From: Anolis carolinensis
Taxonomy: Eukaryota
NCBI RefSeq assembly: GCF_035594765.1
Contig: NC_085846.1
Span: forward strand, 40,473,190 to 40,537,189
Direction: 5' to 3'
DNA length: 64,000 bases
Each line of letters starts with the position of its first letter. Positions within the stretch are counted from its first letter, which is position 1. A program made the position numbers. Below, piece after piece: positions 36,001 through 38,036 of this stretch.

Positions 36001-38036
36001 TTTCTTAAGGAGGTACAAAAACTGGACTGCTACATACAGATCACAATTTTTGCTTTTTATTTGTAATTCACTATTTTCCATTCATGTATCACACCTTGCA
36101 CAAGAGATACAAACGGTCAGTAAATGCTGTCTTAAACTGAAGCTCCCCTCCAGTGGCTGGCTCTTCTACAGTTCCTCTTTTGGAAAACAAATCAGGTTGG
36201 AAACAATGGATTATTAGCACTACTGTGAATATAACTAGAGGGGGAACCTGCCTTGTGAGAAAAACTAAATATAGGGTGTTCTGGCCTTCAGTAAAGTATG
36301 ATCTGCCAGCATAGAAAGCAGCAGGTGCACTAAGGGTGTTCCCCAGCTCTCATCCAGCAGATCTTCAATATTAAATGTATACATAAACACACATTTCCCA
36401 TAGGGACAATTTCCATTCTTTGCACACATCCCAGCAGAGGACTTTTGTTTTCATTGATACACAATTCCGCAATAATGTACATGTAACACAAGGGCTATAA
36501 AGGTTAGCAATTAGTCTTTCAATTCCCAAACCAAGGCCACTGCTGGCTTTTTTGAAAGCTGCCCAGTACTACAGCTATGCCTTTGCAAACAAAATGAGTC
36601 TTTCCATGTTCCTGCATGCCTCTTGTTTCCAGTACTGCATTTTAAAACCTTTCAAAAACAATGTGCCCATCATTTTCTTCTTGCAGAGTACTGCCAATTA
36701 CAACCCATTTGATAGGAAAAGAGCAGTACTCTGCAAGAAGAAAATGATGGGCACATTGTTTTTGAAAGGTTTTAAAATGCAGTACTGGAAACAAGAGGCA
36801 TGCAGGAACATGGAAAGATTACTAATAATATAGTAGGCCTGAGTTAGCTGCTAACTGATAATTCTAGACAGTAAAAACAATAATATAACCATGTTTACTC
36901 CATTTAACTTCTGATTACCTGGTTGTTGTGGAAATTATTACAGCAACTATGATGGAATGCTTCCCCTTGGAGTTAAGAATGAAGAGAACTGGAAAGAATG
37001 CCAAATAAATATACAGTACTTGGGGATTGTTTTCTACTCCCTCTTATTTCAGACAATATTAGAAAGGTGGAAGGGAGAGAAGGAACAAAAAAAGCTGTGT
37101 ATAATCAACCCCTTTATCCTTTGCAATACGAAAAGTTGCAGACTCTGAAAACTCTTCTTCCCTACATTCCAGTTATAGCTGCAGTGCAGTTACTGTCCCA
37201 TAAAAACAGAACAACATAAAGTGCCAGTTGGTATCTTATGCAAAAATACAGGTTTGTGTTATTTTAAATGTTATGGGCATCCTAGTGCAATTGTTCACTC
37301 TGGCACCTATGCCAACATAAATGTGTTTTAATAAATACAAGTGCACCATGAAAGACAGCTTAGTAGATAAACGTGCTTAAGGACATTCAAAAGGAACAAG
37401 CAGAAGAAGTTACCCTAGTACTGCTTGCTATTAACCAGACCTGGTGACTCCTGATCTAAGGGAAGGTACCACATACAACCTTGAGGCAAATGGGCAAGGA
37501 TCTTAGCATCAGCATCAAAAAGGCATCTGATTCCCTTCCTTCCATGAAGGACCTGTGAACGCCCCCTCACACACAGATATGGGAGCTGGTGTATTTGAAG
37601 CAATCTTGAGGAAAACATGACAGAAGGCAAGAGAGTTCTACAAGCCAACTCATTGCTCTTGTGTGCCCCAGGAAATATAGTCAGGCCGAGTGGCAGCATG
37701 ATACTCATCAATCAGCTCCTGCACAATCTTGCGGGAATCATCAAGCTCATCAAAATTCTCTTTGAATATGTCTTCCTTGCGGAACTGTTCCAGGAAGGCT
37801 TCACGTTTGCGTAGTTTGTCGTATTGATGGCAGGTACGTTCGAAGAGCTGGACAAAAAATGTAAATGGTTCAGAAAATGCATGAGAAAGGGTACATAGGA
37901 AGAGTGATTTAGTATCAGGAATAAATAGACAAATCTTACTGCACCTTGAATAATGTAATAAAAAGGAGGCAGAAATTATCTCAGAGTATATTTTAAATGC
38001 CAGAACTATATTAATTTGAGAACATCAAACCACTCA

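What the first reader, a model, noticed from the sequence alone, without database searches (positions are those of the whole stretch)
36599..36818. Perfect 96-bp hairpin between the convergent 3' ends of PLEKHH3 and TUBG1
Seen: two 96-bp arms with no mismatches around a 28-nt loop, with no TSD, no recognisable transposon terminus and no second copy noticed in the window. It lies about 885 nt past the PLEKHH3 terminal-exon stop and about 830 nt past the TUBG1 stop. Inference: a very recent inverted duplication (template switch). If transcribed from either strand it would form a long perfect dsRNA stem, a possible substrate for ADAR or Dicer (endo-siRNA, proto-miRNA) or a cruciform/fragile site.
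Basis: partly seen in the sequence, partly recalled or inferred. Interest (0 to 1): 0.65.

Follow-up and report, generated by a model that had tools for sequence, protein, structure and literature searches.

The report
Perfect 96-bp inverted duplication between genes
A flawless 96-bp inverted repeat sits between the tail ends of two genes and is most likely a young, harmless copying accident, with no sign so far that it does anything.

Summary
The hairpin is real in the sequence, exactly as described. The arms are 36599-36694 and 36723-36818: 96 nt, 0 mismatches, 28-nt spacer. It folds far better than any shuffle (z about -24 to -26).

- **Copies and transposon marks:** There is no other copy in the window and no target-site duplication. 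The same scan recovers an exact 8-bp duplication at a true hairpin transposon elsewhere in the window. No RNA family reaches its threshold.
- **Position:** It lies 831 nt past the confirmed gamma-tubulin stop. It is 884 nt past a plausible but unconfirmed stop of the PH-MyTH4-FERM gene. By hexamer reading it probably lies beyond both nearest poly(A) signals.
- **Best reading (about 0.55):** a single inverted duplication made by replication or repair template switching, and neutral. At 96 nt it is at the long end of reported events.
- **Age:** "Very recent" is not required. Zero differences allow roughly 8-31 million years.
- **Rivals:** assembly artefact (0.17), transposon (0.12), functional hairpin RNA (0.07).
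- **Not testable here:** reads, genome-wide copy number, the state in related species, and transcription.

Modest interest; a new member of a known kind.

The parts
36599..36694 (.). Left arm of the inverted repeat (96 nt, GC 0.40, no CpG)
36695..36722 (.). 28-nt spacer (the loop), not self-complementary
   Evidence: mostly unpaired in the folds
36723..36818 (.). Right arm, exact reverse complement of the left arm
37650..37850 (-). Context: terminal coding part and TGA stop (37650-37652) of the gamma-tubulin gene
   Evidence: residues 387-451 of 451, E 6e-36; further Tubulin_C exons
37327..37332 (-). Context: ATTAAA hexamer about 320 nt past the tubulin stop, with TGTA upstream and a GT-rich stretch downstream. 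Likely poly(A) signal (inferred), which would end the mRNA about 490 nt before the hairpin.
35646..35714 (+). Context: candidate terminal exon and TGA stop of the PH-MyTH4-FERM (PLEKHH3-like) gene. Unconfirmed.
   Evidence: (acceptor and ORF); no family match
35930..35935 (+). Context: ATTAAA hexamer about 215 nt past the candidate stop, with TGTA upstream. Possible poly(A) signal of the + strand gene (inferred).
37004..37009 (+). Context: first canonical AATAAA on the + strand after the candidate stop, 186 nt past the hairpin. If used, the hairpin would lie in a 1.3-kb 3' UTR.
36056..36061 (-). Context: first canonical AATAAA on the - strand after the tubulin stop. If used, the hairpin would lie in a 1.6-kb tubulin 3' UTR.

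Best explanation
The hairpin is a genuine, evolutionarily young inverted duplication. It was made in one step when a DNA polymerase switched template during replication or break repair. The nascent strand either folded back on itself or jumped to the opposite strand. It then copied about 96 nt of the neighbouring sequence backwards and returned to the original template. This left the source segment, a 28-nt spacer and the new reverse-complement copy. It sits in the roughly 1.9-kb gap between the stops of two convergent genes and most likely has no function. At the DNA level it is a potential hairpin or cruciform site. At the RNA level it would form a 96-bp perfect duplex only in read-through or long-3'-UTR transcripts. 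Shown here: the structure, its uniqueness in the window and the absence of transposon marks. Inferred: the mechanism, which arm is the copy, and neutrality.
For: - **Perfect arms:** 96-nt arms with a non-palindromic 28-nt spacer.
- **Single copy:** the arm occurs only in this pair within 64 kb. The next best blastn hits are 15-34 nt at E 0.7 or worse, and only the two arms match at up to 3 mismatches.
- **Unique flanks:** both flanks (35750-36598 and 36819-37640) match only themselves in the window.
- **No TSD:** the best flanking direct repeats are two 4-mers at offsets of 7-12 nt. In random 220-nt intervals, 85% reach 4 nt and 45% reach 5 nt.
- **Positive control:** the same scan finds an exact 8-bp TSD at offsets 0/0 for the hairpin MITE at 22786-22920, although its arms are only 82% complementary. 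An insertion young enough to have perfect arms should still show its TSD.
- **No tandem repeats** in 35000-38500.
- **Not at a contig edge:** the hairpin is 7.5 kb from the only N run.
- **Literature, passages read:** template switching creates perfect inverted repeats in one event, at loci with no earlier similarity (PMC10710096). Most events are 10 nt or shorter. The longest in complex sequence was 90 nt, with 119 and 125 nt in VNTR contexts and 318 nt among all calls in haplotype assemblies (preprint 10.1101/2021.11.26.470150).
Against: - There is no direct evidence for the mechanism. No outgroup or ancestral sequence was available, so the four switch points and the identity of the copied arm are unknown.
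- At 96 nt it lies in the far tail of reported template-switch lengths.
- No microhomology is visible at the junctions. In the derived sequence any priming microhomology would be hidden inside the stem.
- A weak direct similarity between the left flank and the arm would make the left arm the original. It is not significant: shuffle p is 0.015, but 184 of 3000 random adjacent segment pairs score as high.
- The window holds many hairpin-shaped transposons, so a transposon origin cannot be dismissed from 64 kb alone.
- An assembly error cannot be excluded without reads.
Confidence: 0.55

Rival explanations
1. Assembly or sequencing artefact. A fold-back chimeric read or a consensus error introduced a reverse-complement copy that is absent from the animal's genome.
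For: The arms are exactly identical, as an artefact would give. Fold-back and palindromic chimeras are known in long-read and amplified libraries (PMC12338684, abstract and outline seen; 10.1101/173872, abstract in the listing). No reads could be examined.
Against: The repeat is short and lies inside continuous unique sequence on both sides, 7.5 kb from the only N run. As I recall, and as no call confirmed, fold-back read artefacts invert the rest of the read rather than 96 nt, and a consensus of many reads would normally outvote them. No other 100% inverted pair appears among the 25 longest of 35 pairs in the window. Only one other repeat of 97% or more and 40 nt or more appears among 118 non-self blast matches. 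That gives no sign of a generally faulty assembly.
Confidence: 0.17
2. A very young miniature inverted-repeat or foldback transposon whose two long terminal repeats make up nearly the whole element.
For: The genome is rich in hairpin-shaped elements of 110-200 nt with short loops. Examples are 22786-22920, 58058-58192, 42333-42527 and 58671-58781. At 220 nt the size fits a MITE.
Against: There is no TSD of any length of 5 nt or more at any offset within +-12 nt, although a perfect-armed element should be young enough to keep one. The control MITE keeps its 8-bp TSD. There is no second copy or diverged relative in the window, whereas the control family has two. By recall only, the termini do not resemble the hAT, Tc1/mariner, piggyBac or Harbinger ends that I know. 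The other hairpin elements have arms of 82-89%, not 100%.
Confidence: 0.12
3. A functional hairpin-RNA gene, either a long-stem endo-siRNA (hpRNA) locus or a newborn miRNA. It would be transcribed as part of a long 3' UTR or as read-through of either convergent gene and processed by Dicer. This is compatible with an origin by template switching.
For: The predicted RNA stem is extremely stable on both strands. The first canonical AATAAA after each gene's stop lies beyond the hairpin (+ strand 37004, - strand 36056), so long isoforms of both genes could include it. Template-switch hairpins have given rise to miRNA genes (PMC10710096).
Against: No Rfam family reaches its gathering score. The best hits are MIR898 at 45.4 against 75 bits and mir-1278 at 41.3 against 61, which are generic hairpin hits. 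There are 0 matches at gathering level in the whole window. The stem is 96 bp, whereas miRNA precursors prefer about 35 bp (PMC10710096). Good ATTAAA sites with TGTA upstream and GT-rich sequence downstream would end both mRNAs before the hairpin. There are no expression data. Perfect arms show youth, not selection.
Confidence: 0.07

Closest known systems
Template-switch mutations (the Ripley quasi-palindrome model; the four-point model of Loytynoja and Goldman)
   Same: They produce, in one step, a perfect reverse-complement copy of adjacent sequence. They leave no TSD and need no transposase or earlier repeat (PMC10710096 passages; PMC5453318 seen as a listing only).
   Different: Most reported events are 10 nt or shorter. 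This one is 96 nt, next to the longest reported in complex sequence (90 nt). Here the event is inferred from the derived sequence alone, not from an ancestor-descendant comparison.
Miniature inverted-repeat transposable elements, such as the hAT-like hairpin element at 22786-22920 in this window
   Same: Small size (220 nt), long inverted arms, a short loop and a non-coding location.
   Different: No TSD, no second copy in the window, and perfect rather than 82-89% arms.
Long-inverted-repeat hpRNA / endo-siRNA loci and template-switch-born miRNA genes
   Same: A long, perfectly paired stem would form if the locus is transcribed. The proposed origin is the same as for template-switch-born miRNAs.
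   Different: The stem is nearly three times the miRNA optimum. There is no family match and no evidence of transcription or processing.
Fragile long inverted repeats, such as inverted Alu pairs with a 12-bp spacer
   Same: Identical arms and a short spacer are the features that raise hairpin or cruciform formation and breakage (review PMC7999016, passages).
   Different: The arms are about a third of an Alu. In the work cited there, stalling in eukaryotic cells was seen with a 12-bp spacer and not with a 52-bp spacer. At 28 nt this spacer falls between those two, so the risk is unknown.

Membership tests
Template-switch mutation (inverted duplication) | Reverse-complement copy of sequence lying within a short distance on the same chromosome | tested here: met
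   Arms 28 nt apart, 96 of 96 complementary
Template-switch mutation (inverted duplication) | Derived state relative to a single-arm ancestor, explained by four switch points | not testable with these tools
   No vertebrate genome collection or outgroup sequence was available
Template-switch mutation (inverted duplication) | No transposition hallmarks (TSD, multiple copies) | tested here: met
   for the window only. Genome-wide copy number was not testable.
Template-switch mutation (inverted duplication) | Length within the range of documented events | tested here: met
   96 nt, against reported maxima of 90 nt (complex sequence), 119-125 nt (VNTR context) and 318 nt (all calls) in 10.1101/2021.11.26.470150. 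It is in the far tail.
MITE / foldback DNA transposon | Terminal inverted repeats and small size | tested here: met
MITE / foldback DNA transposon | Target-site duplication flanking the element | tested here: not met
   Nothing of 5 nt or more at offsets within +-12 nt. The control element at 22786-22920 shows an exact 8-bp TSD.
MITE / foldback DNA transposon | Multiple copies in the genome | tested here: inconclusive
   No other copy in 64 kb. The rest of the genome could not be searched.
Animal miRNA precursor (any Rfam family) | Scores at or above a family's gathering threshold | tested here: not met
   Best 45.4 against 75 bits and 41.3 against 61 bits. 0 matches at gathering level.
Animal miRNA precursor (any Rfam family) | Stem of about 35 bp with an apical loop of 10 nt or more | tested here: not met
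   Stem 96 bp, loop 28 nt. The criterion is from PMC10710096.
hpRNA / endo-siRNA locus | Long, near-perfect intramolecular duplex | tested here: met
hpRNA / endo-siRNA locus | Transcribed and processed into 21-23-nt RNAs | not testable with these tools
   No expression data. The poly(A) hexamer reading is ambiguous.
Fold-back assembly artefact | Junction unsupported by independent reads | not testable with these tools
   No reads available
Fold-back assembly artefact | Lies at a contig end or next to a gap | tested here: not met
   The only N run is 44335-44483, 7.5 kb away

The most novel reading that the evidence does not exclude
A roughly 96-nt template switch has just created a ready-made long hairpin-RNA locus in the shared termination zone of two convergent housekeeping-type genes. 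Long-UTR or read-through transcripts of both the tubulin gene and the PH-MyTH4-FERM gene would then carry a perfect 96-bp duplex. That duplex would be diced into siRNAs, or hyper-edited, and would act back on those same overlapping transcripts. This would be a hairpin-RNA gene caught at birth in a reptile.
Probability: 0.06. Interest if true: 0.7.

Novelty: new member of a known kind. Interest (0 to 1): 0.3.

Why it matters
If real, this is an unusually long and clean example of a one-step inverted duplication in a vertebrate. It lies at the upper end of what has been documented for short-range template switching. It has not yet been blurred by later mutations, so comparison with a close relative could recover the switch points exactly. 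Events of this kind are the proposed raw material for new hairpin RNA genes. A perfect 96-bp repeat with a 28-nt spacer is also a candidate site of replication stalling or breakage. If it is an assembly error instead, it is worth flagging so that it is not annotated as a structural feature.

Tried and rejected
- **Known RNA families:** A permissive Rfam scan of 35000-38500 gave only sub-threshold, generic hairpin hits to unrelated miRNA models and to potC. The gathering-level scan of the whole window gave 0 matches. Membership of any known RNA family is rejected.
- **ORFs across the hairpin:** The ORFs at 36501-36830 (+) and 36645-36818 (-) have no Pfam match. A coding reading is rejected.
- **Junction microhomology:** None is visible in the bases next to the arm ends. 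This is uninformative, because any priming homology would now be part of the stem.
- **Which arm is the original:**
  - The left flank against the arm scores 19 (shuffle p 0.015).
  - The arm end plus loop against the arm interior scores 18 (p 0.02).
  - The right flank shows nothing (p 0.99).
  - However, 184 of 3000 random adjacent pairs reach the same score, so this is not significant.
  - AGTACT occurs three independent times in 36565-36692, against 21 in the whole window. I noted this but could not interpret it.
- **3' end of the + strand gene:**
  - Ten candidate ORFs at 33311-35752 gave no relevant Pfam match, even at E up to 10.
  - Three PDB searches of single ORFs gave no relevant match.
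  - Only the FERM F2 exon was placed: 33659-34045 aligns to Myosin-X residues 394-461 of 555.
- **Joined gene model:** Exons were searched one by one. The joined spliced model was not built or searched.
- **Searches not made:**
  - The one open genome collection holds only bacteria and archaea, so it was not used.
  - The phage, plasmid and E. coli collections were not relevant.
  - As a result, genome-wide copy number and the state in related species stayed unchecked.
- **Supplements:** Supplementary files of papers were closed. The length distributions of template-switch events (Figs S3 and S13 of the preprint) were seen as legends only.

Full report
**Observation.** The window holds an inverted repeat with arms at 36599-36694 and 36723-36818. 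Each arm is 96 nt, the two are 100% complementary, and 28 nt lie between them (re-checked by script). The bases just outside and just inside the arms do not pair, and the spacer is not itself palindromic.

As RNA the 301-nt region folds at -193.2 kcal/mol on the + strand and -199 on the - strand. Shuffle means are -67.8 and -72.1, giving z of -23.8 and -25.1, and 0 of 100 shuffles do as well on either strand. As DNA it folds at -120.6 against -24.7, with z of -26.3, and 0 of 200 shuffles match it. Of the 25 longest of 35 inverted pairs in the window, it is the only one at 100%. The structure is real in the sequence and is not a chance feature.

**Surroundings.** On the - strand, 37653-37850 aligns to residues 387-451 of the 451-residue gamma-tubulin-1, with a best PDB match of E 6e-36. 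Three upstream ORFs carry Tubulin_C.

On the + strand the following exons are recognisable:
- a weak PH match at 28864-29103;
- a MyTH4 domain at 30469-30804 (E 4.5e-19), closest in the PDB to the Myosin-X MyTH4-FERM cassette;
- RA-like pieces at 31618-32458;
- a FERM F2 exon at 33659-34045 that aligns to Myosin-X residues 394-461 of 555.

This is a PH-MyTH4-FERM gene. Calling it PLEKHH3 rests on recalled gene order. About 90 residues of the FERM domain should follow, but I could not place them.

That is plausible but lacks homology support. It would lie 884 nt from the hairpin. Exons were searched one at a time, and the joined spliced model was left out. I do not take the window for human. 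The N run at 44335-44483 was left alone.

**Is it transcribed?** Only hexamers could be read.
- The tubulin gene has an ATTAAA at 37332-37327 (-), with TGTA upstream and a GT-rich stretch downstream. This would give a 3' UTR of about 330 nt, ending about 490 nt before the hairpin.
- The + strand gene has a similar ATTAAA at 35930.
- The first canonical AATAAA after each stop lies beyond the hairpin: 37004 on +, and 36056 on -.

So the hairpin is either in the termination zone between two poly(A) sites or inside long 3' UTR isoforms of both genes. Nothing here decides between these.

**What it is.** Three origins were weighed.

*Transposon.* The window is full of hairpin-shaped elements, so this had to be taken seriously.
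- A scan for flanking direct repeats, at every offset within +-12 nt on both sides, finds only two 4-mers at far offsets for the target.
- Of 2000 random 220-nt intervals, 85% reach 4 nt and 45% reach 5 nt.
- The same scan returns an exact 8-bp duplication at offsets 0/0 for the element at 22786-22920, whose arms are only 82% complementary.
- An insertion young enough to have perfect arms should still have its duplication.
- The arm has no other copy or diverged relative in the window, and both flanks are unique there.

*Assembly artefact.* This cannot be excluded without reads. However, the repeat is short, lies inside unique sequence and is 7.5 kb from the only N run. The window shows no other suspiciously perfect repeats.

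*Template switching.* This mechanism makes perfect reverse-complement copies of adjacent sequence in one event, and it does so at loci with no earlier similarity (PMC10710096, passages). Most events are 10 nt or shorter. The longest reported were 90 nt in complex sequence, 119-125 nt in repeat contexts and 318 nt among all calls (10.1101/2021.11.26.470150, passages and figure legends). At 96 nt this would be a long but not unprecedented case. I take it as the best explanation, at about 0.55. The support is by exclusion rather than by direct evidence.

**Age.** The arms have no CpG. Zero differences in 96 paired sites give a median of 1.8 to 7.2 million years. The 5% upper bound is 7.8 to 31.2 million years. 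Both assume rates of 2 to 0.5e-9 per site per year. The rates are assumptions, not taken from a call. 'Young' is fair; 'very recent' is not required.

**Which arm is the copy?** This is unknown. There is a weak direct similarity between the left flank and the arm, and between the arm end plus spacer and the arm interior (shuffle p 0.015-0.027), and none for the right flank (p 0.99). That would make the left arm the original. However, 184 of 3000 random adjacent pairs score as high, so I do not rely on it.

**Function.** No Rfam family reaches its threshold. The sub-threshold hits to unrelated miRNA models simply reflect a long stem. A 96-bp stem is far from the roughly 35-bp optimum for miRNA precursors. 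It would be a Dicer or ADAR substrate rather than a Drosha substrate; this is established knowledge, not tested here. At the DNA level, identical arms and a short spacer favour hairpin or cruciform formation and breakage. In the work cited in the review PMC7999016, inverted Alu pairs stalled replication in eukaryotic cells with a 12-bp spacer but not with a 52-bp spacer. This repeat has shorter arms and a 28-nt spacer, so its risk is unknown. In the human genome, the longest perfect inverted repeat with a spacer of 8 bp or less has 140-bp arms (PMC13155455, passages). Repeats of this size are therefore rare but known.

**Verdict.** This is probably a neutral, young inverted duplication, a new member of a known kind, and of modest interest. 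The decisive checks are raw reads, genome-wide copy number, the orthologous sequence in relatives, and RNA data.

Noticed in passing
window 22786-22920 and 58058-58192: Two copies of one hairpin-shaped element (57-59-nt arms, 82-88% complementary, 17-21-nt loops). The first has an exact 8-bp target-site duplication (TCCTAAAC) at its ends, as hAT-type elements do (superfamily by recall). The second has none.
   Followed up: partly
window 6156-6475 and 6861-7180: A 320-nt inverted pair, 97% complementary, 385 nt apart. An ORF at 6769-7155 looks like the C-terminal end of a CR1-type LINE ORF2 (by recall only), so these are probably two inverted retroelement tails.
   Followed up: no
window 42333-42527, 58671-58781, 58924-59104: Further hairpin elements that share similar ends (arms 47-76 nt, 86-89% complementary). 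They look like another MITE-like family. No clear target-site duplication was found.
   Followed up: partly
window 39952-40041: A run of G facing a run of C (40-nt arms, 80% complementary, 10 nt apart), between recognised tubulin exons.
   Followed up: no
window 19473-19722: A 125-nt unit duplicated in tandem at 97.6% identity. It is the only other repeat of 97% or more and 40 nt or more among 118 non-self blast matches in the window.
   Followed up: no
window 36565-36692: The self-complementary hexamer AGTACT occurs three independent times within about 130 nt, spanning the left flank and the left arm, including at the arm's inner end. There are 21 in the whole 64 kb. It could mark an old local repeat or a priming site for the fold-back. 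The alignment test was not significant.
   Followed up: partly
window 44335-44483: The only run of N in the window (149 nt).
   Followed up: no
window 11500-12400: A stretch whose stop-free frames on the + strand are long and rich in Arg, Gly, Pro and Ala, which suggests a GC-rich island. It may be a promoter or first exon upstream of the PH-MyTH4-FERM gene. Composition was not measured there.
   Followed up: no
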